Shown: piece after piece, positions 31,704-64,000 of the stretch
Layout of the letters: the number at the start of each line of letters is the position of its first letter
Position numbering within the stretch: position 1 is the first letter of the stretch
NCBI RefSeq assembly: GCF_054482525.1
Contig: NZ_JBTHVG010000003.1
Strand: one strand, 5' to 3'
DNA length: 64,000 nucleotides
Source of the DNA: a plasmid
Made by a program: the position numbers and the translations under genes
Notes under the pieces: model-generated
Databases searched by the model: none
Told to the model about the DNA's origin: nothing
Seen by the model: only the letters and a program-made list of their open reading frames with translations

Positions 31704-34700
31704 ATGATGATGAATTTCAGGGCGCTGTATTTATGTATTAAACGGATTTTGGGGATATTCTCATCTCAGGAGAATGATGCAACCTCTGTAATGATTGAGG
31801 ATATATCAAGCCTCTCTCCTTTTGCGCAGATTCTAGGAGATCAGAAGTACACTGTTCCTGATCATCCAAATCCAGAAGTCCTGAAATTCATCGAGTATCC
31901 AACTCGTCCGACGGGCATACAGACATTTAATGAACAGTCAATCCTGTCTCTGTATCGGGAAAAGCTGCACTCAATTTCAATGATGTTAGCTATCAGCGAT
32001 AGCGACATCAGGGACGATGCATATACATTTACTAATTTAGTATTAAAGCCCTTGGTTGAATATGTTCGCTGGATACATCTTTTGCCAGCTTCCGAAAATC
32101 ATCATCATAATGGTATTGGTGGGTTACTTTCTCACAGCCTGGAAGTGGCCATACTCTCTTTAAAAAATGCGCATCACTCAGAACTGAGACCAATCGGATA
32201 TCAAGATGAAGAAGTAGTCCGTAGAAAAGTATATCTCTATGCTGCGTTTATCTGTGGTTTAGTCCATGATGCCGGAAAGGTTTACGATCTCGATATTGTA
32301 AGCCTGAATTTAGCTAGTCCGATCATTTGGACGCCAAGCTCACAAAGTCTTCTTGACTGGGCACGTGAAAATGACGTGGTTGAATACGAAATCCACTGGC
32401 GAAAGCGTATTCATAATCAACATAATATCTGGTCCAGCGTTTTCCTTGAGCGAATCCTAAACCCGGTATGTCTTGCATTTTTGGATCGGGTAAATAAAGA
32501 ACGTGTTTATTCAAAAATGATCACCGCCCTAAACGTTTATACTGATGGGAATGACTTTTTGTCTAAATGCGTGAGGACCGCTGATTTCTATTCTACTGGT
32601 ACAGACCTTAATGTTTTACGTGACCCTATCATGGGTCTGCGTTCTAATGATGCAGCAGCAAGGGCCATTAGTACCATCAAGCACAACTTTACCAGTATCA
32701 ATATCAACAATTACAATGCTAAGCCTATGCACATCATTATCGTAAATGGTGAGGTATACCTTAACGAGAACGCATTCCTTGATTTTGTTCTCAATGATTT
32801 CGAATTACATAAATATAACTTCCCTCAGGGAGAGGCTGGTAAGACGGTATTGGTAGAATCCCTAGTTCAACGTGGTTACGTCGAGCCCTATGATGATGAG
32901 CGTGTCGTTCACTACTTCATTCCGGGTATCTATTCGGAAAACGAAATATCAAACATCTTTAGAAATGGGATAGGGAAACTAGAATTCTATAACCTTCTTA
33001 AGCTAAGGTGGATTGGTTTAATCTTTGATTCCTATAAAATCCCTGACTCAGTGCCGGGTCTTTTTAGCGTTAATGCCAATAAAGACTTTATTTACATTGA
33101 CGAGCAAAAAACAGTTACTGAATACAGAAGACCAGTGCCCGGTCGGGACGCTATAACTAAAATTACTGATACTGTTGAGACGGCTGTTCTTAAGGTTAAT
33201 GATTTAGGCCGCTCCACTGCCTCTATTGATGTTGATATACATTCTAAGAAAAATGAAGGCTCATCCGACGATTTTGAGAAGAAAGCCGAAAGTGATAATG
33301 AAATTGATAATGACACGCAGATAGTTAAATCTGAGGGTGAGGAAGCAGCTGATCCTGTCATTCCTGATATAGAAGAAAGTGAAGATGAATCGGCAAAGGA
33401 CACGGAATCCCATGTCCTGGTCAACCAACTTCATGAACTCCTTTTAAGCGCTCCACTTTCCAATGACTATATAGTGTGTGTAGATGCTGTCCCCTACCTC
33501 AACATAGATGCCACTATGGCATTGCTGCCGGGATTAGATGAAAAAGCATTTAGTGAAGAGCCCTATTTCCAACTGACATTCAGAGAAGGCTCTCTCGATG
33601 GAATGTGGATAGTAAGGGACATTGACGATCTGCGTTTAGTCCAGCTCGGCGATAACTGCGCCGGGTTCCAGCTCACCTATCATGAGCCAAGAAGGCCAAC
33701 AACTTTAAAGTCACTTTTCAATACTTCTATGTATCAGGCATTAGTGATTAATGATGAGTCTTCTGTTGAAAACTCTGCCCCACGTCCAAAGCAAACGCTT
33801 GAGCTGCCTCCCCCACGTGTAAATGCAGTCGAAGAACATTCTGGCGACGTGGAATATCATGGAACCGATAGTGCATCCGCGACTGGTCCGCTGAAAACTG
33901 AGGCTGTGGAATATGAACATTATCAACATCTTTTTGAGGAAGAAGATGAAGAGCATGAGATCATTGATTATACCGATTTCACACAGCTTAGTGTTTCTCG
34001 GCCAGAAGTCGGTAGTTGTGCAACAAGCTCTTCGGTCCATAATGAAAAGCTTCTCCCCGAGCCGTCAGAATTACCAGAACTTAACCGAGAACAGAACGCT
34101 GATCCCCAGGGTACGATTGAACGCTCTATGGATGTTTCTGTAGGACAAGAAAACTCAGAACCAGATACTGAGGGTAACTGCCCACCACCAGCTGAAGTTG
34201 TGTATTCCCAGACCGAAGCAGCCGCAACCAGTGTGATGGCAAGTGAAGAGCCCGCCTTACCTCCTGTACTTGAAGAATCAAATGGAGAGCATGCGCCCAC
34301 AGACGCTAAGGGGCATCATCTTTCGCCAGCACTGGCCAGACTGTTCGCCCCAACAGCACCGGTAGAAAAACAAAATCCCAAGCGCAACCGGAATAAATCA
34401 TCGGACAAAGCAGAAGTACAAAAACCAGCATCACCTGTTTCTGGTCACAATCTGAACAGTAAAGTCTTTGCAACTACTGAATCAGACCAAAATGGTGAAT
34501 TCTCGCTTATAAGCGAAGGTGACGTTACAGAGCTTGAATTTGTAGAAATTGCGTCAGTACTGCATCAAATTCTGTCCAAAATGGAGGTGGCGTTTAAAAG
34601 AAAGCGCAAAAACAGATTTATGGTAAGTACTCCTAATACTCTCTATCTGACCCAATCTTGCGTGGAAAAATTTGGGTCGCAGTTAGAGGCTCAAGATCTT

Positions 34701-34856
34701 TTCAATAAGCTTCCTCAGTACCTCGTTAATTCTGGTGCTGTGATCAATACAAAATGCCATGCATTTAACATGCCTACTTTGCTGGCCGCATCAGACCGGG
34801 CGAAAGTGGACATTGAACGAATTATCAATAACCTGAAAGAGGCTGGGAACCTATAA
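31704..34856 (+). CDS. Conjugative relaxase, MOB_H-like (HD-hydrolase-type motif)
   Basis: 1050 aa; ...LLSHSLEVAILSL... and ...LVHDAGKVYDL... His/Asp motifs; followed directly by the coupling protein gene. Confidence 0.6.
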   Translation: MMMNFRALYLCIKRILGIFSSQENDATSVMIEDISSLSPFAQILGDQKYTVPDHPNPEVLKFIEYPTRPTGIQTFNEQSILSLYREKLHSISMMLAISDSDIRDDAYTFTNLVLKPLVEYVRWIHLLPASENHHHNGIGGLLSHSLEVAILSLKNAHHSELRPIGYQDEEVVRRKVYLYAAFICGLVHDAGKVYDLDIVSLNLASPIIWTPSSQSLLDWARENDVVEYEIHWRKRIHNQHNIWSSVFLERILNPVCLAFLDRVNKERVYSKMITALNVYTDGNDFLSKCVRTADFYSTGTDLNVLRDPIMGLRSNDAAARAISTIKHNFTSININNYNAKPMHIIIVNGEVYLNENAFLDFVLNDFELHKYNFPQGEAGKTVLVESLVQRGYVEPYDDERVVHYFIPGIYSENEISNIFRNGIGKLEFYNLLKLRWIGLIFDSYKIPDSVPGLFSVNANKDFIYIDEQKTVTEYRRPVPGRDAITKITDTVETAVLKVNDLGRSTASIDVDIHSKKNEGSSDDFEKKAESDNEIDNDTQIVKSEGEEAADPVIPDIEESEDESAKDTESHVLVNQLHELLLSAPLSNDYIVCVDAVPYLNIDATMALLPGLDEKAFSEEPYFQLTFREGSLDGMWIVRDIDDLRLVQLGDNCAGFQLTYHEPRRPTTLKSLFNTSMYQALVINDESSVENSAPRPKQTLELPPPRVNAVEEHSGDVEYHGTDSASATGPLKTEAVEYEHYQHLFEEEDEEHEIIDYTDFTQLSVSRPEVGSCATSSSVHNEKLLPEPSELPELNREQNADPQGTIERSMDVSVGQENSEPDTEGNCPPPAEVVYSQTEAAATSVMASEEPALPPVLEESNGEHAPTDAKGHHLSPALARLFAPTAPVEKQNPKRNRNKSSDKAEVQKPASPVSGHNLNSKVFATTESDQNGEFSLISEGDVTELEFVEIASVLHQILSKMEVAFKRKRKNRFMVSTPNTLYLTQSCVEKFGSQLEAQDLFNKLPQYLVNSGAVINTKCHAFNMPTLLAASDRAKVDIERIINNLKEAGNL

Positions 34857-36940
34857 TGTCAGATTCGAAGAGGACTAACCTCCATGCACAAGAGAATTTT
34901 TATCGGCCTATTCTTGAGTATCGTAGTGCCTCAATACTTTTGATTTGTTCGGTTTCTATGCTTTATATGGGACTTTCTTCAGACGGACTGGACATCGCCC
35001 CAATAGTTCTGTTCACCTCAATATTGCTTTTTTTGCTGTGCCTTTATCGTTGCAAAACAGCAGCGCCATTCTTGATGGCTCATTGGCGTGTATTCAAGCG
35101 ACATTTCATGTTCGTTAGTCTTGATTCACTGCGTGTAATTAACAAAAGTAACTTTTTCTCCAATGAGCGAAAGTATCGTCAACTGGTTCAGGATTATCAA
35201 AATAAAAATAAGGATATACCCGAGCGAAAGTCCTATTTTTGTGATGGGTTTGAGTGGGGCCCGGAACATGCGGATCGGGCATATCAAATAGCTAACCTCT
35301 CCAGTGATAAACGTGAGATCGAGTTGCCATTCGTCTTCAACCCAATTAAGAGACATTTTGACGCAATGGCTCGTAAGATGGGCGGCAGCAATGCAATTTT
35401 TGCTGTGGAACGTAGGGAACCCATATTTGTAACTGAAGACAATTGGTTTGGTCATACTCTGATAACCGGAAACGTGGGTACCGGGAAAACGGTGCTACAG
35501 CGTTTACTAAGCATTAGCATGCTTCATCTTGGTCATGTTGTTGTTGTCATAGATCCAAAGAACGATGCAGAGTGGCGAGAATCTCTAATGGAAGAGGCTA
35601 AGACCCTCGGTCTTCCTTTCTATAAATTTCATCCTGGCCAGCCAGCATCTTCGGTCTGTATTGATGTCTGCAACACCTATACTAATGTTTCTGACCTAAC
35701 ATCTCGTCTTTTGAGCTTGGTGACAGTTCCCGGTGAGGTTAACCCATTCGTTCAGTATGCCAAGGCTCTCGTTTCCAATGTGATTTCCGGGCTTTCTTAC
35801 ATAGAGAAAAAGCCTTCTATTTATCTGATTCACAAGAACATGAAAAGCCACATGTCTATTGTGAATCTTACAGTCAAGGTAATGGAGTCATGTTACGCGA
35901 GATATTATGGTTACGATGTCTGGACCGAAAAAGTTAAGTACGTCGCTAACGAAACCTTGCCGGTACGTTTCAAGCGTCTCGCTGAATGGTTTACGGCTCA
36001 TTTCATGAATTACGAGGGGTCCGAACAAATAGACTGGTTAGATACTGTTTCCCAGCTTATTGATTACTCAATGTCCGACCCAGAGCATATGGCTAAAATG
36101 ACCGCAGGTATTATGCCTGTTTTCGATATGCTCATTGAAAAACCTTTAAATGAGCTTTTATCTCCTAACCCGAACTCAGTATCATCAAGAGAAATTGTAA
36201 CAAGCGAAGGGATGTTCAGCACTGGCGGGGTGCTATACATTTCGCTTGATGGCCTTTCAAACCCCGATACAGCAGCTGCTATTTCTCAATTAATAATGTC
36301 AGATCTGACCTCCTGTGCCGGTAGTCGCTACAACGCTCAGGATGGTGATATGTCAGCTAATTCCAGGATAAGTATTTTTGTTGATGAGGCACACTCAGCC
36401 ATTAACAACCCTATGATTAACCTTCTGGCGCAGGGTCGTGCAGCGAAAATTGCACTGTTTATTTGCACCCAAACCATCTCCGACTTTATTGCTGCGGCAA
36501 GTGTTGAAACTGCCAATCGAATTACGGGGCTCTGCAACAATTATATAAGCTTGCGAGTCAACGATACTCCTACTCAGACGCTTGTTGTAGAGAACTTTGG
36601 TAAGAGTGCGATAAGCACAAATATGGTCACTTATACGACCGGTTCAGAAACATCTTTGCCGCATAATAACTTCTCAGGTTCAATCTCAGAAAGAAAGCAG
36701 ACAACTTTAGAAGAGAGTATTCCAAAGGATCTCTTGGGTCAGGTCCCTATGTTTCACATAGTTGCCAGGCTTCAAGATGGCAGGAAGGTTGTAGGCCAAA
36801 TCCCTATTGCTGTTGCTGAGAAACAAATGAAGCCAAACACAACTCTGTCGGAAATGCTTTTCAAGAAGGCCGGAAAAGTTACTTTGCGTCAAAATCTCGA
36901 TATCAAAAATCTTAATAAATTTCTAAGGAAGTTTCATTGA
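34856..36940 (+). CDS. Type IV coupling protein (TraD/TraG/VirD4 family ATPase)
   Basis: N-terminal TM; Walker A GNVGTGKT; Walker B FVDEAH. Confidence 0.8.
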   Translation: MSDSKRTNLHAQENFYRPILEYRSASILLICSVSMLYMGLSSDGLDIAPIVLFTSILLFLLCLYRCKTAAPFLMAHWRVFKRHFMFVSLDSLRVINKSNFFSNERKYRQLVQDYQNKNKDIPERKSYFCDGFEWGPEHADRAYQIANLSSDKREIELPFVFNPIKRHFDAMARKMGGSNAIFAVERREPIFVTEDNWFGHTLITGNVGTGKTVLQRLLSISMLHLGHVVVVIDPKNDAEWRESLMEEAKTLGLPFYKFHPGQPASSVCIDVCNTYTNVSDLTSRLLSLVTVPGEVNPFVQYAKALVSNVISGLSYIEKKPSIYLIHKNMKSHMSIVNLTVKVMESCYARYYGYDVWTEKVKYVANETLPVRFKRLAEWFTAHFMNYEGSEQIDWLDTVSQLIDYSMSDPEHMAKMTAGIMPVFDMLIEKPLNELLSPNPNSVSSREIVTSEGMFSTGGVLYISLDGLSNPDTAAAISQLIMSDLTSCAGSRYNAQDGDMSANSRISIFVDEAHSAINNPMINLLAQGRAAKIALFICTQTISDFIAAASVETANRITGLCNNYISLRVNDTPTQTLVVENFGKSAISTNMVTYTTGSETSLPHNNFSGSISERKQTTLEESIPKDLLGQVPMFHIVARLQDGRKVVGQIPIAVAEKQMKPNTTLSEMLFKKAGKVTLRQNLDIKNLNKFLRKFH
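35145..35155. promoter_or_regulatory. AAAGT(A/T)ACTTT palindrome copy (intragenic)
   Basis: cAAAAGTAACTTTTTCtc; inside the coupling protein gene. Confidence 0.4.
36875..36885. promoter_or_regulatory. AAAGT(A/T)ACTTT palindrome copy (intragenic)
   Basis: gAAAAGTTACTTTGCGtc; 3' end of the coupling protein gene. Confidence 0.4.
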
Positions 36941-51907: not shown

Positions 51908-52066
51908 CTACTTACCGGATTCGTAGGCCAGGATAGCAAATACCTCCCTTGTTCCGTCTTTCATCCGCAACTCGCAAAGCGAGTTTCGTGTGAGCCAGGT
52001 GAATATCAACAGCGTTAAACAAACTATTAATATGCACAAAACAATGGGTTGGTTCGGCATTTTCAT
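51908..52066 (-). CDS. hok: Hok/Gef-family type I toxin (52 aa)
   Basis: [52 protein letters not shown] matches the Hok family; ORF-track N-terminal extension is a mok-like upstream frame. Confidence 0.8.
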
Positions 52067-52164
52067 GGCCTTCTTCTCCTTGCATTTAAGCAGGCAAGAG
52101 GCTACGCTGTGTGTGACTAGCATACAGGGGCCTCGGGTTGTACTGACCCCAGAAAGTTGGACAG

Positions 52165-53016
52165 TTAAACACGAGGCATATAGGTCTGATTCCGATATTC
52201 AATTGGAGTCAGACCTTTTAATTTCAGGCTAATTCTTCTGCTGTTGTAGTATTCAATATATTCCGTAACAGCATCCTTCAGCTCGCTTATATTACTGAAC
52301 TCATCAAGATAAAAACACTCCGACTTTAAGGTTCCAAAGAAACACTCCACCACAGCATTATCCAGACAATTGCCTTTTCTGGACATGCTTTGTTTAATAC
52401 CATGTTCTTTAAGGATATTTTGATATCTTCTCATACGATACTGCCATCCCTGGTCAGAGTGCAGAACAGGATGCTCGTGAGGATTAAGCTTTTTGAATGC
52501 CTGATCGAGCATATTCTCGACCATGTTCATCACTGGTCTTTCCGAAAGGCTGTAAGAAATAACTTCGTTGTTGAAGAGATCTATTACTGGAGACAAATAC
52601 AGCTTGCGCCCATTGACTGCAAATTCAGTAACATCGGTAACCCACTTCTCGTTTGGCCGCGTAGCCTTGAAATCTCTTTGGAGAACATTGGGGGCGGTTT
52701 GCCCTACCTCTCCTCTGTAAGAGCGGTATCGCTTGACCTTAATCGCTGCCTTCAGTGAGAGGATTCCCATCAGGCGCTGAACAGCTTTATGGTTAATCTG
52801 TTTCCCTTCTCGATGAAGAGACAGCGTTACCCTACGGTATCCGTATCGGCCTCTATTCTCATGATAAATCTCACCAATACGCTTTTTAACGTCCGCATAC
52901 TTGTCAGGCTTGCTGAGAGCCTTTAGATGGTAATAAAACGTACTGCGCGGTATCTCCGCAGCCCTGAGAAGCTCATCAAGAGGATAAAACTGCCTTAGCT
53001 CGTTGAGTACTTTCAC
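52165..53016 (-). CDS. IS150 transposase OrfB (DDE domain)
   Basis: 283 aa; IS3-family integrase core. Confidence 0.9.
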
Positions 53017-53534
53017 TTTTTCGTGGGATGAGCTAAGGCTTTCAGCTTTTTTAGATACACAAGCCGCGTTTCAAGAAATCGAACTTGCCTTTCAAGATCC
53101 TCAATGCGTCGGTCTTTTGACAGCTCCAATGCTGATGCCGCTTTTTCTGGATCAACTGATATTGCAATGTTTCTTTTGGTGCCAATCTTGAGCGCGCGTA
53201 AACCAGCTTCTCCGCGCTCTTCATAAACCTTCAGCCACCTGGCTACAGAACCACTACCAGCAAGCATAAAGTGAGCAGCAGCCTGATTAAGGGACATGTG
53301 CTGCTCGATCACCGCTTTCACGACCTTAATACGCAACTCAGGATCAGCACTAACACCTTTAGGTTTGGGAATTAAACCTTTTTCTCCATGTTTTTCATAG
53401 AGGGCAACCCATGTCCTGACCTGGGTTCGGGGGACACCAAAACGTGCCGAGATGATCCTGTAACCATCATCAGTAGTGAAGTAGTGATTCACGACTTCAA
53501 GGCGCTTTTCAAAAGGGTATTTTGGCTTTGACAT
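53013..53534 (-). CDS. IS150 transposase OrfA (HTH)
   Basis: 173 aa; overlaps orfB as expected for a frameshift-fusion arrangement. Confidence 0.9.
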   Translation of the reverse strand: MSKPKYPFEKRLEVVNHYFTTDDGYRIISARFGVPRTQVRTWVALYEKHGEKGLIPKPKGVSADPELRIKVVKAVIEQHMSLNQAAAHFMLAGSGSVARWLKVYEERGEAGLRALKIGTKRNIAISVDPEKAASALELSKDRRIEDLERQVRFLETRLVYLKKLKALAHPTKK

Positions 53535-53866
53535 ATCAGGGGCTATTCCATTTCATCGTCCAACAAAATGGGTGCAGTACAGGTTAATTGAAAAATTACT
53601 CGGGGCTTTCTGCTTTTACCACAGTCAAACAGTGTTACCGCTGGCTGGGGCAAAAGCCTCCAGCACCAGCGTCATTATATCACTCTGCCCTGATCAGCCA
53701 AACACCCTGCCTGCATAAATCATTGATTTATAATTTATTTGACATGAGTCACTTCCGGTTGTCGGAGACAGTCTTTTTACACTAAAGAAAAGGGTAACGG
53801 GCAGCTGCTTGGTCGGAACATACAGTGCAGTTCCTGCCCGTTTAATTTCCGGATGCAATGGTAGGA

Positions 53867-55877: not shown

Positions 55878-56078
55878 TTATAAGAGGAGTACTGGCAAAG
55901 CTTTGCCAAGTACTTCGGCGGTTGTGTCTACGATTTTACGGATGTCATCGATCTGCGAAGGCTTATTCAACACCACCGTAAAAAGCTCTCCTTCGTTATC
56001 AGCCTGCTCGCAGTTTCCGTATCGGCTCCCGTCGTACAGCTGCACAATACGTGACATAGAAGACTTTGTTTGTTTCAT
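55878..56078 (-). CDS. Small hypothetical protein
   Basis: 66-aa ORF downstream of the 74-aa paralog gene. Confidence 0.3.
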   Translation of the reverse strand: MKQTKSSMSRIVQLYDGSRYGNCEQADNEGELFTVVLNKPSQIDDIRKIVDTTAEVLGKALPVLLL

Positions 56079-56117: not shown

Positions 56118-56342
56118 TCAGAAGCTGGTTTCATGCGCTTCCGGCTGGGACACGAACTGGTATTTGACGCCGCCAGGCACACCTACTGCTTCGGCAATAG
56201 AGTCGCAAAGCCGCGATAAATCATTTAGTGTCATCGGATATTCAATATCTACAGAATATAAAGCACCTGCATTTTCAGCATCTTCGATGTTTTTATACTG
56301 GGCACTAAATATAGCAATGGTCTGAATTTCGTGGTTATGCAT
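56118..56342 (-). CDS. Small conserved protein, paralog A (shares motif with 61307..61546)
   Basis: ...DIEYPMTLNDLSRLCDSIAEAVGVPGGVKYQF... vs ...DIEHPMTLNDLSLLCESVADAVGAPGGIKYEI... Confidence 0.5.
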   Translation of the reverse strand: MHNHEIQTIAIFSAQYKNIEDAENAGALYSVDIEYPMTLNDLSRLCDSIAEAVGVPGGVKYQFVSQPEAHETSF

Positions 56343-56396
56343 GAACCGGTCCTTATTAAATTATAAAAGCCACCCGAGAGTGGCCTGAGTTGAAAC

Positions 56397-56600
56397 TTAA
56401 ATCTGTGAAGTATTTTTGAGAGATTTTTTGCGATCCAGATGCCGGGCAACAATGGTTCCGATAACAAGTAGCATGATGACCGCACTGAAGAAGGTGCTGT
56501 CAGGGACGCCCTGGAAAAAATCACTGAAACTGTAAACAATAAAAATCAATGCGCAAAAATAGAAAACGATACGAACATAAGGGGTAAAAAACATTTTCAT
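56397..56600 (-). CDS. Small membrane protein, hypothetical
   Basis: 67 aa, hydrophobic; palindrome copy 141 bp upstream. Confidence 0.35.
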   Translation of the reverse strand: MKMFFTPYVRIVFYFCALIFIVYSFSDFFQGVPDSTFFSAVIMLLVIGTIVARHLDRKKSLKNTSQI

Positions 56601-56740
56601 CGGTTGCCTTCCATTCAGGGAGAATTCTCAGTAATTACATCACACCTGAAGAGAAACTATTTTCGTATAAATGAGCATTTTCGACATATCAGAGGGGGGG
56701 TTTACTCATAAATGAGGTAGTAAGGGTCACACTTGAGGTG

Positions 56741-56751
56741 AAAGTTACTTT
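56741..56751. promoter_or_regulatory. AAAGT(A/T)ACTTT palindrome copy
   Basis: gtGAAAGTTACTTTCCtg; upstream of gene 56397..56600. Confidence 0.5.
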
Positions 56752-56779
56752 CCTGGCTGCGAACGAACTATCTCAAATG

Positions 56780-57073
56780 TTAGAGGTGTGCGTTCGCCTT
56801 GAGAGCCTCATGCCCTGAGGAGCTCAACTTGAGCCGATAGTATAAACCTGGCTCCAGATGGCTTGCTGGCTGGCATAACTCCACGAGGCCGAGCCGGAAC
56901 AGGACCGGAGAGCTCCTGCACGTCACATCATCAGGATTCCCCATAAACGTACGCCGTTCTCTGGCCCGTCTGAAATTGCCAGAGATATCATAGACCGTGC
57001 CGGATGCCATCCGTCGTAACACGTAAATCTGTGCCATTGTAAGCTTCTGGGCGGAACTGCTTAAACCTGACAT
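56780..57073 (-). CDS. Hypothetical protein
   Basis: 97-aa ORF. Confidence 0.3.
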   Translation of the reverse strand: MSGLSSSAQKLTMAQIYVLRRMASGTVYDISGNFRRARERRTFMGNPDDVTCRSSPVLFRLGLVELCQPASHLEPGLYYRLKLSSSGHEALKANAHL

Positions 57074-57152
57074 ACCTTCCCCTCCTTATATAAAACAATC
57101 CGCCAGCAGCTCGACTGGCGGACAATGTTTGACTGGCAACAGCAAGGACATA

Positions 57153-57644
57153 CTATTTAGTGACAAGTTTGATCTTGGTTTCACTCATTCGAAGTCGAAA
57201 CTCCTGAAAACCCTGCTCTACCGCTAACTCCAGCCACTCAACGGGAATGGTATAGCTACAATCAGACCCACCCAAAGCGGCATCACAAGCGTAATCCCAG
57301 TCCTCATCCAGTTTTGGATTCATCCCCTGGGCGTAAGCCACAGTATCGCGGGATGCGGGAGAGCCCTCAAGCTCAGCATTAGTGATCAGGTATACACCAT
57401 GACTGTGCGCGAGAAGCACTTTTGGCACCAGATGTGTGCTGGCAATTTTTGAGGATGAGGGAAAGAAAACCCTACCAGCTTTACGCGCCTCTTCTTCAGT
57501 CTGTCCCTCAGCGTTAAGGAGGGCTCCCCCCGGATAGCATGCCGGGTCATAGATCTGATCTGCGGTGACCGAAAACGTTTTTGCGGTGCGAATTTCTTCG
57601 ATCAGTTTATTAATATCCGCCATTTCAAATACGAGAGTGGTCAC
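57153..57644 (-). CDS. Hypothetical protein
   Basis: 163-aa ORF. Confidence 0.4.
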   Translation of the reverse strand: MTTLVFEMADINKLIEEIRTAKTFSVTADQIYDPACYPGGALLNAEGQTEEEARKAGRVFFPSSSKIASTHLVPKVLLAHSHGVYLITNAELEGSPASRDTVAYAQGMNPKLDEDWDYACDAALGGSDCSYTIPVEWLELAVEQGFQEFRLRMSETKIKLVTK

Positions 57645-57648
57645 AGGC

Positions 57649-57996
57649 TTACTCTCCCTCTTCAGTGGACAACATCAGATACTTTGTTGCCAGCAGAAGC
57701 TCTCCCACATCCTTGAGGGACAATTCAGCTTTGCCTTCTACGGCAAGCTGCAAGCGCTGTCGAATTGCATGAACAGAATCTGAAGATAAAGATGCCATTT
57801 TGCGCAAAACGGCATTAGCCTTTTCTACAGCAGGATACAGAATTTCTGAGTTGGTATTATCTTCGTCATTATCAAAGATAATTTCAGAATCCATATTGAT
57901 GTTATCTTCAAGCCAGCTTGAAAGCACTTCAAGTAATGACATCACCTTTTCAATTTGCATATCGCCTCCTCTGTTAATGTGAAACAAATATAACAA
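57649..57996 (-). CDS. Acidic hypothetical protein
   Basis: 115 aa, Asp/Glu-rich. Confidence 0.4.
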   Translation of the reverse strand: MLYLFHINRGGDMQIEKVMSLLEVLSSWLEDNINMDSEIIFDNDEDNTNSEILYPAVEKANAVLRKMASLSSDSVHAIRQRLQLAVEGKAELSLKDVGELLLATKYLMLSTEEGE

Positions 57997-58475
57997 AGTG
58001 GCTTACCCGGCTAATAACCTGAGCAGAAAGTTTTCGCACTTTGTTTGAAAACAACTTTTCTGCTCAGGTTAATGTTAAAGTCGCTGTGTAAAAGATAAAG
58101 GGCACTAAAGATGATTTAAGCATCAAACAGACTAAATCGGATTCCGTCTTTTATATCGCTTTTAAAATAGAATGAATGAAATATAAATTTAGCGTTTATG
58201 ATTGAACGCTGTAGAGGTTGATTTATCCAGTGATATTCAGTTTGGGGCCTTAAAAAGGTTTTATTTTGGATTCGAATTACAAAGGGAGCACCGACATTTT
58301 TCTGGGGGCTCCCGCAGAGAAAAAGCGGTGAGGCTATGAAGACGAAGAGGAGGTATTCGACGAAATACTGTATGGCCACAGGAGAGCTTCAGCACCCATA
58401 TCCTGCCGTCTCGCTCGCCTGTAATGATTTCAACATGTACAACGTCATACCACGTAGTTGTATTTCTCACTTTGT

Positions 58476-58796
58476 TTATGCTTCCTGACACCGTGTGAAC
58501 GCAATCTTCGTCTGGATGCGTTCATAGATGGAAAACTGCCTTTCAATGGAACCGGCATTAGACAGTAATTCATGAAGCTCAGCAGAGTCTGTATCGGGAA
58601 CGATAGCTACAGAAACTCCATATCTCCGTCCAATTTTGATTAGGTGCGCAAGCTGTTCTTTTTCGGATTCTGTGAGCATTGCCAGATCTCTTCCGGACAC
58701 CTGCTCTATAAACGAACCAAGGTTTTTGGGAAAAAAGGGTTCGGCATCAGAGTTATGTGCTGGGCGCGTCTGCGGCTTATCGAAGCTATTGGGCAT
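58476..58796 (-). CDS. Hypothetical protein
   Basis: 106-aa ORF. Confidence 0.35.
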   Translation of the reverse strand: MPNSFDKPQTRPAHNSDAEPFFPKNLGSFIEQVSGRDLAMLTESEKEQLAHLIKIGRRYGVSVAIVPDTDSAELHELLSNAGSIERQFSIYERIQTKIAFTRCQEA

Positions 58797-58947
58797 GAAT
58801 AGAACCTATACAGTTAGAGAACTGGAGAATGGATAAAGACTCTATGAAAATCAGTTGTGCTACACTCGAATGCTAATCAAGCTTTATGATGGCTTTAGTA
58901 GGGATGGCCGTCAACTTAAACCGATAAGAAGGGAGCCATTTATCGTT

Positions 58948-58958
58948 AAAGTAACTTT
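58948..58958. promoter_or_regulatory. AAAGT(A/T)ACTTT palindrome copy
   Basis: tTAAAGTAACTTTCCCgg; intergenic. Confidence 0.5.
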
Positions 58959-58975
58959 CCCGGATGATGCTCTTT

Positions 58976-59203
58976 TTACGAAATAAGTTTCTCACACTCC
59001 TGTATAAGAGTCGCCCTGGAACGAGATCGACTGGCTTTGCTTAATGAAGAGCGTAGTTGATGTTCATCAACCCCATCAGCGATAAACTGACCGATTTTTG
59101 TTTCAAGCCGCTGCATTGCCTCGTAAAGCTTGGCATCCGCATTATTTTTAAGAAACCTCAGTATATAATCAGCAATAATTTGGACGGGAGTGAACTTATA
59201 CAT
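58976..59203 (-). CDS. Small hypothetical protein
   Basis: 75-aa ORF. Confidence 0.3.
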   Translation of the reverse strand: MYKFTPVQIIADYILRFLKNNADAKLYEAMQRLETKIGQFIADGVDEHQLRSSLSKASRSRSRATLIQECEKLIS

Positions 59204-59430
59204 TATGTATCCTTAAGACGTTGTGTTAAATGATTCAAAAAAATTTATAACCAGACGTAAATTATTATACATAAGTAAGCACTTTAGCTAACAAGCTGGA
59301 GGAGTGAATTTCGGTTAGCAACTATATTTTAGAAGCTGATTGCTGAATAGACAAAGCCCGGCTTACCGGGCATTCATTTAATTAGATGCTAGAAATCTGA
59401 CCCGTCGTCTGACTTTTATTCCAGGCAGAG

Positions 59431-60042
59431 TTAGGAACTAATAATGATGGCCTGGTCAGTTTGAGGAAGCCGGTTTCCTCTGATAAATGCAGGGTGGTTT
59501 AAACGAGAAGAAGAAATGGTCATCGCCAGAAATGTCTCTTCACGCGAACGCAGAAATTCCCCCCATGAATAGGTTTCCCATACGTCGTGAGAAAGGTCGG
59601 ATTCCTTTATGTACCGGGATTGCATTGTTGGCTCAAAATCGACAGGGGCTAAACTGTCATAGGATGGATGAACACGGTACCCCAATCCCTCCTCCGTCTG
59701 ATGGTATGCATGTGCCAAAAGGACATCGTGGGAGACCAGGTCATAGTCGTTGTCCTGAACGAGCGTTTTTACGGTATGACTAATTTCCCCAAAGCCGTCT
59801 ATTTCCCAGAGCGTTATCATTGTGAACTCAGCTAAAGTTCGTGGGCTCTTTACCAGAAAGCCATTTAATGCTCGTCGCCCCTTCAGCATGCCAACGTGGT
59901 AGGTCTTGTTGGGATAGGGTTTCATTGCCACCAGCGAATCAGCTTTAAGCTCAAGTGACAATTCAGGGACAGACACGGACATGAGAGTACACTTGTTTTT
60001 CATATGGTGAAGAATACGTGGCACAAGATGCAGATACATCAT
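59431..60042 (-). CDS. Hypothetical protein
   Basis: 203-aa ORF; true start may be internal. Confidence 0.4.
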   Translation of the reverse strand: MMYLHLVPRILHHMKNKCTLMSVSVPELSLELKADSLVAMKPYPNKTYHVGMLKGRRALNGFLVKSPRTLAEFTMITLWEIDGFGEISHTVKTLVQDNDYDLVSHDVLLAHAYHQTEEGLGYRVHPSYDSLAPVDFEPTMQSRYIKESDLSHDVWETYSWGEFLRSREETFLAMTISSSRLNHPAFIRGNRLPQTDQAIIISS

Positions 60043-60153
60043 TTTCTCCTTTTATGGATATAACTGGCAGATCCTCAGCAGCATCAAAATAGTTAATAGA
60101 CTTTTTTAATTGGTTAACCACTGTTGATTGACTTGTTTTATGTCTCTGAGAAA

Positions 60154-60720
60154 TTATTCGTTTTGTTTCTGTTCGTTATACTGCTCAAACCAGAAGACGA
60201 CCGGTTTTACTACAATATGAAGCAAACCAAAACGTTCTGCGGTACGGAAATTCACGCTATATGCGCGAGCCCGTTCAACCTGTTTGGTAATTTCATTTCT
60301 CATTCCTTCAACACTAAAAGCTCCTTTAAAAAGGTTGCAGGGAGCGCATGATGGAAATAAGTTTTCTATTGCATGCAGTTCAGGGTGCATAACCTTACCC
60401 GTACTTCGGGCAACATGAGTTACGCCGCTGCCGACCGGGGCTCTCACCAGTTCAAAGTCGCGTCGAACAGGCTCAACATGATCGGCATGCCACCCTTTTT
60501 CAGGAAGCTTGCAACCACAATAGGCACAACGCCCCCCAAATTTCATTCGCAGCTCAGCTCGCTGTATTTTAGAGATCTTATTTTTAGGTTTTGAGAACCT
60601 ACCATCAGGTGATTCCGCTTTGGATAACTTTGCTGAGGGCTCAGGTAACTCAACTAAATTCCCGTTGATATTTATCACCTTGACCATATCATTTTCCGCC
60701 TTTACTAATCTCACGGGCAC
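60154..60720 (-). CDS. HNH endonuclease (zinc-finger-containing HNH motif)
   Basis: ...GGRCAYCGCKLPEKGWHADHVEPV...CAPCN... HNH core. Confidence 0.65.
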   Translation of the reverse strand: MPVRLVKAENDMVKVININGNLVELPEPSAKLSKAESPDGRFSKPKNKISKIQRAELRMKFGGRCAYCGCKLPEKGWHADHVEPVRRDFELVRAPVGSGVTHVARSTGKVMHPELHAIENLFPSCAPCNLFKGAFSVEGMRNEITKQVERARAYSVNFRTAERFGLLHIVVKPVVFWFEQYNEQKQNE

Positions 60721-60747
60721 AGGAGCTGGCTTAAGTAACCGCTGAAG

Positions 60748-60936
60748 TTAACAGCCACTGACTGCCTCTACCCAGACCTTCTGTTTATACTCAATAGGCC
60801 ACCCCTCTTTATCTGCCCGGATGACGCAATCATTTACCGTGGTGCGTGACCGGATACGAACATCAAGCGGAAGCGAATCGTTATCCACACGAGCCTGTGC
60901 CTCATTTAAAATGCGTAAAAACATCTCTTTGGTCAT
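60748..60936 (-). CDS. Small hypothetical protein
   Basis: 62-aa ORF. Confidence 0.3.
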   Translation of the reverse strand: MTKEMFLRILNEAQARVDNDSLPLDVRIRSRTTVNDCVIRADKEGWPIEYKQKVWVEAVSGC

Positions 60937-61244
60937 TCAGATACCCCCTCAACTTTGCGAATTTTGATCAGATGAGGGCGATTCAGTTTACAAAGTTGTT
61001 CTGTCGCTTCATCAATCGAATTGAACCGATGAGCCTCTTCGATATTTAAAGTCCAGTATTTCGCTTTCCCTTCTCCCAGATCGGACTCAAAATAATTTCG
61101 CTTTACATCCATTTTTTTAGGCCTGCCATTTATCTTGACGACATTATGTCTGTCATCAAAAAGAAATTCGTCCCCCTCAAAAGTGATTAATACAAATGGC
61201 CCCTCAGGCTTGGAAGTCCGGGGACTTCCCATTTTCAAAGTCAT
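60933..61244 (-). CDS. Hypothetical protein
   Basis: 103-aa ORF. Confidence 0.35.
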   Translation of the reverse strand: MTLKMGSPRTSKPEGPFVLITFEGDEFLFDDRHNVVKINGRPKKMDVKRNYFESDLGEGKAKYWTLNIEEAHRFNSIDEATEQLCKLNRPHLIKIRKVEGVSE

Positions 61245-61306
61245 ACTTCAGCCTCTCGATAGAACTCATGAAACCTCAAATTAAAATGGACTCACACCAC
61301 ACTGAT

Positions 61307-61546
61307 TCAGTATTCCTCCTGAACCCCATTAGGCTCTGTTGTGATTTCATATTTAATACCGCCAGGTGCTCCCACAGCGTCCGCGACCGACTCACACAGC
61401 AGCGAGAGATCGTTGAGGGTCATTGGGTGTTCAATGTCCAGCGTGAAGAGTTTCCCGGCTTGCTTGGCGGCTGTCTTGTCAGCATGTTCAGCATTAAAAA
61501 GGTATACGGTGTGTTTTTCCTGAGCGGGGGTATTTTGATTTTGCAT
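61307..61546 (-). CDS. Small conserved protein, paralog B (shares motif with 56118..56342)
   Basis: See paralog A; palindrome copy 133 bp upstream. Confidence 0.5.
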   Translation of the reverse strand: MQNQNTPAQEKHTVYLFNAEHADKTAAKQAGKLFTLDIEHPMTLNDLSLLCESVADAVGAPGGIKYEITTEPNGVQEEY

Positions 61547-61678
61547 TGATGATCCTTTTGTTTAGTTCCCCGATTCCGGGGGTGAGTGAATTAATTTAAA
61601 TTTATATTTGTCTGGTTTAATTAGAACGTTTCCAGGCTATGCGTAAACAGGTAATGCAAAGGCTGTATCAACAGGATT

Positions 61679-61689
61679 AAAGTTACTTT
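61679..61689. promoter_or_regulatory. AAAGT(A/T)ACTTT palindrome copy
   Basis: tTAAAGTTACTTTTCTgg; 133 bp upstream of paralog B, downstream of the PAPS-reductase-like gene. Confidence 0.5.
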
Positions 61690-61795
61690 TCTGGATGCAG
61701 CAACGCTTGGACATGATGTCCACATTACATCACGATCAAAGCTAAGTTTTTTTTGTATAACCCCTTCATTTTCGTGTGTTTCGCGTTTCAGACGC

Positions 61796-64000
61796 TTATA
61801 CGACCTGCCTGACCATCCTCATCAGAAGGCGGTTTAACAGTCCTTTCGCTGTCGGGCGATTGCTATCGACATAGTAAAAACCTGTTTTGGTCGTACCGTG
61901 AGCACTGCTCAGCACCCTCAGTTCCCAGATAACGTCACGGATAACGCCGCCATTTTCTGGCTTAAGGCATTCAGATAAATGGCGCATGAAACGAGCTCTT
62001 ACGGCACGGTAATAGCGGAACTCCTCTGGCTGGTTAGTATTTTCTTTCACCCGGAGTCGCTGGTTACACAGAGTTAGAACTGCATCCATCATTCCCGCCT
62101 TCAGCTTCGCCTGGATCGCACCTTGTTGCTGTTCCCTCTCACCTTCGAGTAACGTTAAGATTCTTTCTCCGAGTGCCGTCTTGTTGTGTACGTGCAACTG
62201 TACACAGGCAGCTACGCATGCCCAGAATCTGAACTTTTTTATCTGTCCACGCAATTTCCGGGCTACAACCTGACGGTATGCAGTATCGCTGAGTATTTTA
62301 AAACGCCGACTGGCAACCAGCTCTGGAAGCGACACTCTTTCGCCTATCCCCAGGCGGGAAAAGGTTTGTCCCCGTTGTGCGAGACGATGATAGACAGCGC
62401 CCTTCCCTTTTGAAATTCGGACCGCGCCATAACGAAGAAGATACTGAGCAGCAGTCGTTGGAGTAAACTCACCGTCAGCGATGCTCTGGCGTAACCCGTC
62501 GTATTCATGCCAGATAATCCAGGACGCCGTATCTTCTTCAACAGTCAGCTCATCCTCTTCCTCGAATGCCACGACGACAGAACTGCTCTCTCCGGTCTTT
62601 AGGCTACGTGAAGCCCTGGGGTCAGCCTGCCCGTCAAAATAGGTCATCAGCGGCAACGTATCAGTCAGTCCATCATAAGCTGTACCGAACCGGCCTCCGG
62701 GCAGTTTCATCCAGAGTGGAGCTGGCATTGGTGTACGGGCCACAGGCAGCATGTCAGGCTCATCCTCAAGAAGGTCCAGATCGGCCTCTTCCCAGACTCT
62801 GCGATAGATCTCAATTGCCCGAAACGGGCGAGGGTTGAAACAGTGCAACGACCAGAGGAAATCAACGTGGATCACGTTTGCTTCATGTACAAGCCGAAAT
62901 TGTGGCTCAGCCATACGACGGTTATAAGCCGTATCGTCCACCTCGCCGGAAAGTAGCTTTCTGCGATGCTTTGCCGCACGTCTGGCTTCAACATAATCAA
63001 GGCTGCAACAGACATGAAAAAGACGTTCAGTCAGGGACGAAGAAAAGATATTGGGTTGAAGACGCACATACCCGCCTTCGAACACTTTACGACCGATATA
63101 ATCCCGCAGGCTCCAGTCGTACTGGATCTTAGAAAGAAATCGCTGAAGACGACTTAGGCCTGCCTGATAACCATATTTCTCAGGGTCAGTGCGAAGGAGC
63201 GTTTCCATTGAATGGTCAACCCCTACGGCTGTGCAAAGCGAGCACCCATATCTAGCCCCACAAGCTGAGGTTCGCGTGGGTTTCTCCGGCGACCAGATAC
63301 ACTCTCCGGTGGCGTCTTTATAAAGCGTTGCCAGGCTGAAGTTATCCGGCATAAAGCTTGGTAAAGGGAAGCGGGATTCGGAACCACAGGCCATTAGAAA
63401 AGACCAGATGTCCTGAGTGCGCCACTCCTTTACTGGATAGAGTTCACCACCGTGCTCAGTCAGGGTTACTTTCCTCGCCTGCCCTCCCATTTTGAGGATA
63501 TTTCCGGCCCTTCGGGCACTTTCATCATCCCTGGAGCCCAGCATCAGGCATACCCTGCTTCGTACGGATGCCGGGGCGTTTTTTAGATAACGAGCTTTGG
63601 CCTTGCGCAGGGGGGCGATTTTGTAGTCGGTTGAGCACTGACGGGTTGAAGAATTAGTCCAGGTCGGAAGTCCACGTCCAGTCAGAATGCGGCCTACCCA
63701 GCTCTGCGTAAGAGACGGTTGGGCGACAAGGACTGTGACCGGTAGCTGGTGTTCAGCAATGAACATTCTAAGCTGGTTGAGAACCTGTGAAGCCTGATAG
63801 TGCATCTCAGGGTTTTCGATCAGCGTATCGGACATCTGAATGAAATGATGTTCGCTGATATTTGTGCCGTTACGTACTGCCCTGATCAATGCCATCAGAA
63901 ATAGGTGAAGAAGAGAATGGGAGTCTTTACCGCCACTGTATCCCACGCACATCGTCCATCCGTCCGTAATAGCCTGATAAATAGCAGATGTGGCTGACGT
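61796..64000 (-). CDS. PAPS-reductase-like (PP-loop ATP pyrophosphatase, DndC-like) large protein; 5' end beyond the window
   Basis: ...VGYSGGKDSHSLLHLF... PP-loop SGGKDS motif; reading frame stays open upstream of the listed Met to position 64000. Confidence 0.6.
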   Translation of the reverse strand, partial: TSATSAIYQAITDGWTMCVGYSGGKDSHSLLHLFLMALIRAVRNGTNISEHHFIQMSDTLIENPEMHYQASQVLNQLRMFIAEHQLPVTVLVAQPSLTQSWVGRILTGRGLPTWTNSSTRQCSTDYKIAPLRKAKARYLKNAPASVRSRVCLMLGSRDDESARRAGNILKMGGQARKVTLTEHGGELYPVKEWRTQDIWSFLMACGSESRFPLPSFMPDNFSLATLYKDATGECIWSPEKPTRTSACGARYGCSLCTAVGVDHSMETLLRTDPEKYGYQAGLSRLQRFLSKIQYDWSLRDYIGRKVFEGGYVRLQPNIFSSSLTERLFHVCCSLDYVEARRAAKHRRKLLSGEVDDTAYNRRMAEPQFRLVHEANVIHVDFLWSLHCFNPRPFRAIEIYRRVWEEADLDLLEDEPDMLPVARTPMPAPLWMKLPGGRFGTAYDGLTDTLPLMTYFDGQADPRASRSLKTGESSSVVVAFEEEDELTVEEDTASWIIWHEYDGLRQSIADGEFTPTTAAQYLLRYGAVRISKGKGAVYHRLAQRGQTFSRLGIGERVSLPELVASRRFKILSDTAYRQVVARKLRGQIKKFRFWACVAACVQLHVHNKTALGERILTLLEGEREQQQGAIQAKLKAGMMDAVLTLCNQRLRVKENTNQPEEFRYYRAVRARFMRHLSECLKPENGGVIRDVIWELRVLSSAHGTTKTGFYYVDSNRPTAKGLLNRLLMRMVRQVV

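What the first reader, a model, noticed from the sequence alone, without database searches (positions are those of the whole stretch)
56118..61546. Two diverged paralogs of a ~75-aa protein 5 kb apart
Proteins at 56118..56342 and 61307..61546 share a conserved core (L/D-IE-Y/H-PMTLNDLS-x-LC-D/E-S-I/V-A-E/D-AVG-x-PGG-V/I-KY) while the DNA has diverged, indicating an old duplication under selection. One carries the palindrome upstream.
Basis: seen in the sequence. Interest (0 to 1): 0.4.

Follow-up and report, generated by a model that had tools for sequence, protein, structure and literature searches.

The report
Three-copy orphan protein family, IncHI plasmids
The two small genes are real, anciently duplicated copies (a third copy next door was missed) of an uncharacterised acidic protein found only on IncHI-type resistance plasmids; selection keeps them, but their function is unknown and the case is a genuine but fairly ordinary orphan family.

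Summary
Confirmed. Both ORFs lie on the minus strand: A is 56118..56342 (74 aa) and B is 61307..61546 (79 aa). They share 50% identity over 64 aa (E 2e-26). Synonymous sites are saturated (pS 0.85) while pN is 0.32, and there is no gene conversion.

The window is IncHI2 plasmid backbone. A third, more distant paralog, C (55878..56078), sits directly after A (hmmsearch E 1.7e-6; hhalign probability 95.8%).

The family has no Pfam, NCBIfam, PADLOC, PDB or fold match. Searches of billions of proteins found it only in IncHI-like plasmids of Enterobacterales.

In seven plasmid lineages the unit is a DndC-like 800-aa gene, then a promoter-like block, then a 67-aa two-helix membrane protein, then an A-type gene. 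In IncHI1 and IncHI2 the promoter-like block plus the gene was duplicated. B stays beside the DndC-like gene, and the membrane-protein/A/C unit lies 4-5 kb downstream.

A and B are intact in over 99% of about 1000 IncHI2 plasmids. About 19% of those plasmids lack the DndC-like catalytic segment.

The proteins are small, acidic (net -7 and -8 for B and A) and fold as beta-alpha-beta-alpha-beta. I infer that they are protein binders in a plasmid-host conflict island. This is not shown.

A dispersed palindrome, AAAGTWACTTT, lies upstream of both operons.

The parts
61307..61546 (-). Paralog B, 79 aa, acidic (net -7, pI 4.6); stand-alone copy next to the DndC-like gene
   Evidence: ORF; 50% identity to A; intact in 973/975 IncHI2 plasmids; AF2 model is beta-alpha-beta-alpha-beta, pLDDT 78
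56118..56342 (-). Paralog A, 74 aa, acidic (net -8, pI 4.4); middle gene of the membrane-protein/A/C operon
   Evidence: ORF; intact in 995/1001 IncHI2 plasmids; 80% identical to its IncHI1 ortholog with pS saturated
55878..56078 (-).
   Evidence: hmmsearch with an A/B-type profile that held no C sequence: E 1.7e-6 among 1580 six-frame ORFs; alignment; hhalign of A/B profile vs C profile: probability 95.8%, E 6.7e-9
56397..56600 (-). 67-aa two-helix membrane mini-protein (conserved FSDFF loop, basic C-tail) that always precedes an A-type gene
   Evidence: ORF; GRAVY 0.79, pI 9.7; homologs precede the A-type gene in L002-L006, L009, L011-L013; two helices at pLDDT about 85 in the fused model; single copy per plasmid
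61724..61773 (-). Promoter-like block upstream of B (GAAAAT..GTTATAC-A-run..TGaTGTAAT extended -10)
   Evidence: Direct repeat D3 with the copy at 56634-56670; the same block is conserved after the DndC-like gene and before the membrane-protein gene in IncHI1
56634..56682 (-). Paralogous promoter-like block upstream of the membrane-protein/A/C operon; its -10-like TGTAAT lies 34 nt before the membrane-protein ATG
61679..61689 (.). Dispersed palindrome AAAGTTACTTT in the predicted B leader, 133 nt upstream of the B ATG
56741..56751 (.). Dispersed palindrome AAAGTTACTTT, 141 nt upstream of the membrane-protein ATG
61568..61581 (-). Hairpin CCCCG-GAAT-CGGGG about 20 nt before the B ATG; IncHI1 has a different hairpin (GCCCTG-ATCA-CAGGGC) at the same place
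56367..56386 (-). Terminator-like hairpin between the membrane-protein gene and A
61796..64000 (-). DndC-like (PP-loop, SGGKDS) ~794-aa gene, cut by the window end; conserved upstream neighbour of the family
   Evidence: NCBIfam DndC E 6e-34 but 118 bits against a cut-off of 290; PHROG PAPS reductase

Best explanation
SHOWN: A, B and C are paralogs of one orphan family of 60-80-aa soluble beta-alpha-beta-alpha-beta proteins; the A and B types are strongly acidic. The family is confined to IncHI-like conjugative plasmids of Enterobacterales. The ancestral unit is a promoter-like block, then a 67-aa two-helix inner-membrane mini-protein, then an A-type gene, usually with a C-type gene nearby. 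It sits just downstream of a DndC-like 800-aa gene, inside a long one-directional array of small genes that also holds an orphan methyltransferase, hok/sok and RelE/ParE. Before IncHI1 and IncHI2 split, the promoter-like block plus the A-type gene was duplicated. B stayed next to the DndC-like gene without a membrane partner and evolves faster. The membrane-protein/A/C unit lies 4-5 kb downstream. All copies are under purifying selection. INFERRED: the proteins are too small, too acidic and too motif-poor to be enzymes or DNA binders. They most likely act as stoichiometric protein binders. A (and C) would act together with the co-transcribed membrane mini-protein, perhaps docking on its basic cytoplasmic tail, and B would act free in the cytoplasm. 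The role would be in plasmid-host conflict or establishment (anti-defence-like), not in replication or the transfer machinery.
For: Paralogy and selection. Restricted family: 32 hits in 5.8e9 proteins, 21 in 1.84e9 representatives, 101 with the wider profile; every hit that carries a source name is named from an Enterobacterales species and called a hypothetical protein (most carry no name). Seven lineages keep the order membrane protein then A-type gene downstream of the DndC-like gene (directly, or after one intervening 154-aa gene in L012), even where proteins are only 33-45% identical. In IncHI1/2 the membrane-protein/A/C unit moved together with its promoter-like block. Core backbone genes: intact in over 99% of about 1000 IncHI2 plasmids and present in IncHI1. 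Charge: -8 and -7, pI 4.4-4.6, against +4 for the membrane protein. Context: about 36 kb of co-directional genes with an Mrr_N+N6_N4 methyltransferase, two sok-like RNAs, Hok and RelE/ParE; relatives add Lar and GmrSD_N fragments. The 'large hypothetical protein region' of an IncHI2 plasmid can be deleted in serial passage, so it is not needed for vegetative maintenance (PMC9599605).
Against: There is no homology or fold match to any anti-defence, toxin-antitoxin or other family. A fused membrane-protein/A/C AlphaFold model gave no confident interface (pLDDT 53, pTM 0.32). The array lies on the relaxase side of the putative oriT, so it fails the operational 'leading region' definition of PMC11541004. 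No Frpo/ssi-like sequence is found in the window. Natural IS1 disruptions of A with the membrane-protein gene intact exist (A not intact in 6/1001 plasmids), so A is not individually essential. Guilt by association is weak because every occurrence lies in the same syntenic plasmid backbone.
Confidence: 0.35

Rival explanations
1. The membrane-protein/A(/C) unit is a toxin-antidote-type module. The 67-aa two-helix membrane protein would be a membrane-damaging toxin or effector. A and C would be its protein antidotes or regulators, and B a spare, cross-protecting copy.
For: The order membrane protein then A-type gene is invariant in seven lineages. The charges are opposite (+4 vs -8). The array already holds hok/sok and RelE/ParE addiction modules. 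Type V GhoT/GhoS shows that a small two-helix membrane toxin can pair with a small alpha/beta antitoxin (my own knowledge, not tested here).
Against: There is no hit to any toxin-antitoxin or defence model. Plasmids with IS1 inside A but an intact membrane-protein gene and promoter are viable (pXD35001, H95). B has no membrane partner in IncHI2. The gene order is 'toxin' first, with a terminator-like hairpin before A. The fused model shows no confident contact.
Confidence: 0.2
2. A/B-type proteins are accessory subunits or regulators of the neighbouring DndC-like PP-loop enzyme, which would be a plasmid DNA- or RNA-modification system.
For: An A-type or B gene lies shortly downstream of the DndC-like gene in all eight lineages examined, usually after the membrane-protein gene and in two lineages (L009, L012) also after a 154-aa gene. 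The DndC-like N-terminal domain scores E 6e-34. Dnd systems use small partner proteins (my own knowledge).
Against: A conserved promoter-like block separates the DndC-like gene from the family gene. In IncHI1/2 the A copy sits 4-5 kb away. About 190 of about 975-1001 IncHI2 plasmids keep A and B but lack the PP-loop segment (786 vs 975 and 1001 records; separate searches, not matched record by record). In pFJMB80153_1 the enzyme is cut to residues 325-794 while B is intact. There is no similarity to DndB, DndD or DndE.
Confidence: 0.1
3. They are small transcription or post-transcription regulators of the plasmid, for example the factor that reads the dispersed AAAGTWACTTT palindrome.
For: The palindrome lies upstream of both operons and is plasmid-wide. 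The factor that binds it is unidentified.
Against: A net charge of -7 or -8 with no basic patch or helix-turn-helix makes DNA binding unlikely. There is no fold match to regulators.
Confidence: 0.04
4. They are chance ORFs or decaying pseudogenes with no function.
For: No annotation and no homologs outside this one plasmid group.
Against: Saturated synonymous change with low non-synonymous change. Intact in over 99% of about 1000 plasmids. Conserved Shine-Dalgarno sequences. A confident compact fold.
Confidence: 0.02

Closest known systems
Small acidic anti-restriction / DNA-mimic proteins of conjugative-plasmid establishment regions (ArdA, Ocr-like; anti-defence islands of PMC11541004)
   Same: Small size, strong negative charge and plasmid-only distribution. 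Placement in a long co-directional array with an orphan methyltransferase, hok/sok and toxin-antitoxin genes, transcribed toward oriT. Several diverged paralogs per element.
   Different: No sequence, profile or fold similarity. The array is on the relaxase side of the putative oriT, 24-34 kb away. No Frpo/ssi element was found. No functional data exist.
Small-membrane-toxin modules with a protein partner (e.g. type V GhoT/GhoS)
   Same: A roughly 60-aa two-helix membrane protein is encoded next to a small soluble alpha/beta protein, and the pairing is conserved.
Dnd phosphorothioation accessory proteins (DndB/DndE) next to DndC
   Same: Small proteins encoded beside a DndC-like PP-loop ATPase.
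   Different: The enzyme is below the DndC cut-off (118 vs 290 bits) and carries a unique 470-aa C-terminal half. There is no DndA, DndD or DndE. The family persists where the PP-loop domain is lost.

Membership tests
Known anti-restriction / anti-defence families (ArdA, KlcA/ArdB, Ocr, Acr etc.) | Significant match to the family's sequence profile | tested here: not met
   Pfam: none even at E<=10. NCBIfam: none. PHROGs: only E 0.16 to a family of unknown function. PDB sequence search: E>0.4.
Known anti-restriction / anti-defence families (ArdA, KlcA/ArdB, Ocr, Acr etc.) | Fold resembling a known inhibitor or DNA mimic | tested here: not met
Known anti-restriction / anti-defence families (ArdA, KlcA/ArdB, Ocr, Acr etc.) | Inhibits a host defence system in vivo or in vitro | not testable with these tools
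   Needs conjugation or phage assays with defence-proficient recipients.
Leading-region (early-entry) genes as defined in PMC11541004 | Located on the side of oriT opposite the relaxase, within the first tens of ORFs | tested here: not met
   MobI is at 30427-30966 and the MobH relaxase at 31704-34856. The family lies at 55.9-61.5 kb on the relaxase side. The oriT position itself is inferred from mobI, and the transfer direction in IncHI was not found in the literature searched.
Leading-region (early-entry) genes as defined in PMC11541004 | Co-directional genes, transcribed toward oriT so that the transferred strand could be the template | tested here: inconclusive
   Nearly all genes from 41.9 kb to about 36 kb beyond are on the minus strand, pointing toward oriT. 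This fits only if transfer runs rightward through mobH, which is unknown.
Leading-region (early-entry) genes as defined in PMC11541004 | Frpo/ssi single-strand promoters nearby | tested here: not met
   blastn and nhmmer with six of the Frpo/ssi sequences listed in the paper's supplement 4: no hit better than E 0.4.
Toxin-antitoxin module | Match of either partner to a known toxin or antitoxin family | tested here: not met
   NCBIfam and PADLOC for A and B, and PHROGs and NCBIfam for the membrane protein: no hits.
Toxin-antitoxin module | The antidote cannot be lost while the toxin is kept | tested here: inconclusive
   IS1 splits A while the membrane-protein gene stays intact in pXD35001. A is not intact in 6/1001 plasmids. 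B or C could compensate.
Dnd-type modification system (as accessory subunit) | Obligate co-occurrence with an intact DndC-type enzyme | tested here: not met
   The PP-loop segment is found in 786 plasmids, B in 975 and A in 1001. A truncated enzyme sits next to an intact B in L014.
The A/B/C orphan family itself (membership of C) | Significant profile match, collinear alignment and the same secondary-structure order | tested here: met
   hmmsearch E 1.7e-6 for C in the window and 3e-15 for the C-type gene of L002. hhalign probability 95.8%. Same beta-alpha-beta-alpha-(beta) order in the fused model, at low confidence.

The most novel reading that the evidence does not exclude
A, B and C are a new family of plasmid counter-defence or host-manipulating proteins. 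One version works through a dedicated two-helix membrane mini-protein and one is a freed cytoplasmic copy. Both are switched on as part of an IncHI-wide regulon controlled through the dispersed AAAGTWACTTT operator. The long mobH-side gene array would then be the functional 'establishment' region of MOBH/IncHI plasmids, even though it lies on the relaxase side of oriT.
Probability: 0.2. Interest if true: 0.6.

Novelty: new member of a known kind. Interest (0 to 1): 0.3.

Why it matters
IncHI2 and IncHI1 plasmids are major carriers of mcr-1, mcr-9, ESBL, carbapenemase and typhoid multidrug-resistance genes. More than half of their backbone consists of 'hypothetical' genes. This work turns three of those genes, plus a fourth membrane partner, into one defined and testable family. 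The family has a clear ancestral unit, a dated duplication and natural knockouts. It is also tied to a conserved cis-element that may mark a plasmid-wide regulon. If the proteins prove to neutralise host defences or to aid establishment, they would be plasmid-specific targets and would help define the early-expressed region of MOBH plasmids. If not, they remain ordinary conserved backbone ORFans.

Tried and rejected
- **IS hotspot in A.** The top megablast hits all showed IS elements in the 10-kb region, and databases hold many truncated A variants. Short-query searches show A intact in 995/1001 and B in 973/975 IncHI2 plasmids. The first impression came from ranking bias, so the idea is rejected.
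- **Gene conversion keeping the core identical.** Rejected: identical residues mostly use different codons.
- **Remnant of the membrane-protein gene in the 170-nt B leader, or homology of the IncHI1 154-aa two-helix protein that precedes B to the membrane-protein family.** No hit with a profile of that family.
- **The promoter-like block as a general promoter type of the array.** It occurs only at the two paralogous positions.
- **Structured RNA in the B leader.** z-score -1.7, not notable. Rfam finds only two sub-threshold sok hits elsewhere.
- **Complex prediction with a fused membrane-protein/A/C chain.** Low confidence (pLDDT 53), so unusable.
- **Frpo/ssi search.** Negative.
- **Literature.** No paper mentions the accession numbers, the palindrome in an IncHI context, or an IncHI leading region or transfer direction. 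The R27 Tra1 paper is not held.
- **Tree.** The deep branching order of A and B relative to the single-copy lineages is unresolved (bootstrap 10-46%). It is therefore open whether B arose in the IncHI1/2 ancestor or earlier with later loss.


Full report
**Observation.** Listing ORFs in 54-64 kb shows that both reported coordinates hold ORFs on the minus strand: A at 56118..56342 (74 aa) and B at 61307..61546 (79 aa). The plus-strand translations are meaningless. BLASTP gives 50% identity and 78% positives over 64 ungapped residues, E 2e-26. The DNA is only about 60% identical. Each gene has an AAGGA ribosome-binding site at the right distance.

**Where the window comes from.** The 10-kb region matches more than 1000 large conjugative plasmids of Escherichia, Salmonella, Enterobacter, Klebsiella and Citrobacter at 95-100% identity. 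Annotated examples identify the IncHI2 backbone:
- RepHI2, TrhH and MobI at window 30427-30966.
- The MobH relaxase at 31704-34856 and TraD at 34856-36940.

By analogy with other MobI/MOBH elements, oriT is probably in the 29.7-30.4 kb intergenic region. That is my inference and was not tested. From about 41.9 kb to about 36 kb beyond the window, nearly all genes are on the minus strand and so are transcribed toward that region. They include two hok/sok-like loci, an orphan Mrr_N/N6_N4 methyltransferase, RelE/ParE, HNH endonucleases, DUF3085, DUF957, DUF6012 and many unnamed small ORFs.

**Selection.** For A vs B, pN is 0.32 and pS is 0.85 (saturated). A(IncHI2) vs A(IncHI1) gives pN 0.11 and pS 0.80. 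B vs B gives dN/dS 0.32. In the 32-codon core, 23-26 residues are shared between A and B but only 8 codons are identical, in IncHI1 as in IncHI2, which excludes gene conversion. Short-query searches show A intact in 995/1001 and B in 973/975 IncHI2 plasmids. tblastn finds about two places per record in 1300 plasmids, including IncHI1.

**A third paralog.** A profile built only from A/B-type sequences finds the 66-aa ORF directly downstream of A (55878..56078) with E 1.7e-6 among 1580 six-frame ORFs. It finds the equivalent gene of a distant plasmid at E 3e-15. The alignment is collinear. Profile-profile comparison gives 95.8% probability, E 6.7e-9. The family therefore has three members in the window.

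**What the family is.** None of the following gives a hit:
- Pfam, NCBIfam, PADLOC, or PHROGs (PHROGs only a non-significant E 0.16 match to a family of unknown function).
- PDB sequences.
- Foldseek against AFDB50, apart from family members.
- Viral structures.

Searches of 5.8 billion and 1.84 billion proteins return only 32, 21 and, with the wider profile, 101 clusters. Every cluster that carries a source name is named from an Enterobacterales species and called a hypothetical protein; most carry no name. Many are fragments of the same genes. The AlphaFold model (pLDDT 78) is a compact beta-alpha-beta-alpha-beta unit. The invariant EYPMTLNDLS-LC-S-A stretch covers the beta2-alpha2 loop and the start of helix 2. 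A and B are strongly acidic (net -8 and -7, pI 4.4-4.6). C is close to neutral.

**Conserved unit and history.** I examined seven further lineages: IncHI1 (L009) and six IncHI-like plasmid contigs whose A-type proteins are only 33-66% identical to A. In all of them an A-type gene is immediately preceded by a 67-68-aa protein with two predicted membrane helices, an FSDFF-type loop and a basic tail. In the six IncHI-like contigs outside IncHI1/2 this pair follows an approximately 800-aa DndC-like gene, directly in five and after one intervening 154-aa gene in L012. A C-type gene or DUF6012 comes next. Outside IncHI1/2 there is only one A-type copy.

In IncHI1 and IncHI2 the order is DndC-like gene, (one extra gene in IncHI1), B, a variable 3.5-5-kb block, then membrane protein, A and C. 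A 50-nt promoter-like block (GAAAAT-N8-GTTAnAC-A-run-N17-TGnTGTAAT) occurs exactly twice, after the DndC-like gene and before the membrane-protein gene. This holds in both IncHI1 and IncHI2 and the block occurs nowhere else. The duplication therefore copied promoter plus gene.

In the NJ tree, B(IncHI1+IncHI2) is monophyletic (99%) and A(IncHI1+IncHI2) likewise (93%). Deeper nodes are unresolved. B evolves about 2.5 times faster than A. No trace of a membrane-protein gene remains in the B leader.

**Tests of functional hypotheses.**

- *Accessory to the DndC-like enzyme.* The enzyme has a PP-loop N-domain (DndC E 6e-34, below the cut-off) and a unique C-terminal half. Its PP-loop segment is found in only 786 plasmids, against 975 with B and 1001 with A (separate searches). 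In pFJMB80153_1 the enzyme is cut to residues 325-794 while B is intact. Obligate coupling is unlikely.
- *Toxin-antidote.* The invariant membrane-protein/A pairing and the opposite charges fit. However, IS1 splits A in pXD35001 with the membrane-protein gene intact, and no toxin-antitoxin model matches. A fused membrane-protein/A/C model was too poor (pLDDT 53) to say anything about contacts. It did show the two helices of the membrane protein and the same strand-helix order in C.
- *Leading-region anti-defence.* The gene content and the one-directional orientation toward oriT resemble the anti-defence islands of PMC11541004. Against this, the array is on the relaxase side, so it fails that paper's operational definition. 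No Frpo/ssi homolog is present. I found no literature on the IncHI transfer direction. An evolution study reports that the large hypothetical-protein region of an IncHI2 plasmid can be deleted during passage, so it is not required for vegetative maintenance (PMC9599605).

**Best reading.** The paralogy, the ancestral unit and the selection are shown. The mechanism is inferred. I take these to be small acidic protein-binding modules: A, and probably C, working with the co-transcribed membrane mini-protein, and B as a freed, faster-evolving copy. They would act in plasmid-host conflict or establishment rather than in replication or the transfer apparatus. I give this about 0.35. The toxin-antidote reading gets 0.2, the DndC-accessory reading 0.1, a regulator role 0.04 and no function 0.02. 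The rest is 'something else'.

**Regulatory element seen on the way.** The palindrome AAAGTWACTTT, often AAAAGTWACTTTT, occurs 14 times perfectly in the window against roughly 0.05 expected (my own estimate). With one mismatch, 18 sites are found against 0.52 expected in shuffles. By my own reading of the ORF and annotation tables, eleven of the 14 perfect sites are intergenic or at gene junctions. The sites include both sides of the putative oriT, 141 nt upstream of the membrane-protein ATG, 133 nt upstream of the B ATG (inside its predicted leader) and 152 nt upstream of the 106-aa ORF. The palindrome is conserved at about one per 3-5 kb in IncHI1, in the rest of IncHI2 and in the distant relatives, although the flanks have diverged. 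I found no paper that describes it. It looks like the operator of a plasmid-wide regulator, comparable in layout to the KorB sites of IncP plasmids (my own knowledge). That would place both paralog operons in a common regulon.

**Novelty and interest.** The genes have long been in databases as hypothetical proteins. Their paralogy, the third member, the conserved membrane partner and the duplicated promoter-like block appear undescribed in the literature I could search. This is a new, well-delimited orphan family of a common general kind, namely small conserved backbone ORFs in a plasmid conflict island. It is not a new kind of system. Interest is modest (0.3). It would rise if the anti-defence or membrane-module reading, or the palindrome regulon, were confirmed.

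Noticed in passing
window 15269, 17734, 19827, 26739, 29799, 30284, 35145, 36875, 41777, 46826, 46952, 56741, 58948, 61679 (11-mers); also L009, L010, L002-L006: The dispersed palindrome AAAGTWACTTT (often AAAAGTWACTTTT) has 14 perfect copies in 64 kb against roughly 0.05 expected (my own estimate). Most copies are intergenic, by my own reading of the ORF tables. It flanks the putative oriT and lies upstream of several minus-strand operons. It is conserved in IncHI1 and in distant IncHI-like plasmids although the flanks diverged. It looks like the operator of a plasmid-wide regulator. No paper describing it was found.
   Followed up: partly
window 61796-64000 (gene continues beyond the window); L001 12698-15082; L014 7037-8449: A ~794-aa protein has a DndC-like PP-loop N-domain (E 6e-34, below the family cut-off) and a unique ~470-aa C-terminal half. 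It is conserved next to the family in all lineages. About 19% of IncHI2 plasmids lack the PP-loop segment. In pFJMB80153_1 the gene is truncated beside a 1091-aa P-loop NTPase and an HTH gene. One palindrome copy lies at the same codon position (KLLSG) of this gene in three lineages.
   Followed up: partly
window 41900-64000 and about 36 kb beyond (L010): There is a very long, almost purely one-directional gene array on the minus strand, pointing toward the putative oriT but on the relaxase (mobH) side. It has leading-region-like content: an orphan methyltransferase, hok/sok twice, and RelE/ParE. This conflicts with the usual rule that the relaxase side is transferred last. The transfer direction of IncHI plasmids was not found in the literature searched.
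   Followed up: partly
window 52064-52218 and 53505-53668 (minus strand): Two matches to the Rfam sok antitoxin RNA fall below the gathering score (34 and 47 bits vs 59). This fits two hok/sok-type loci in the array (Hok annotated).
   Followed up: no
window 56780-57073 (minus strand): A 97-aa ORF lies just upstream of the membrane-protein/A/C promoter-like block. It is not annotated in the RefSeq record examined, but a homologous ORF (shared AQIYVLRR-ASG motif, my own reading of the sequence) is annotated in IncHI1 (L009 8085-8345). It has no Pfam match.
   Followed up: partly
window 61568-61581; L009 about 4880-4900: A hairpin lies about 20 nt upstream of the B start codon. It is kept in IncHI1 and IncHI2 with different sequences (CCCCG-GAAT-CGGGG vs GCCCTG-ATCA-CAGGGC), which suggests a selected RNA or DNA structure such as a stabiliser or processing site.
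   Followed up: no
window 56600-61300; L014 1-6500; L011/L013 8260-11900: The block between B and the membrane-protein/A/C unit varies between lineages. This window has HNH, DUF6012, DUF957 and DUF3085. Another IncHI2 plasmid (pFJMB80153_1, IncHI2A replicon) and relatives have DUF6012 followed by two TelA-like genes. Many different IS elements are inserted in this 10-kb stretch in different plasmids.
   Followed up: no
window 58015-58029 / 58057-58071: A perfect 15-nt inverted repeat with a 27-nt spacer (TAACCTGAGCAGAAA / TTTCTGCTCAGGTTA) lies just upstream of the DUF957 gene.
   Followed up: no
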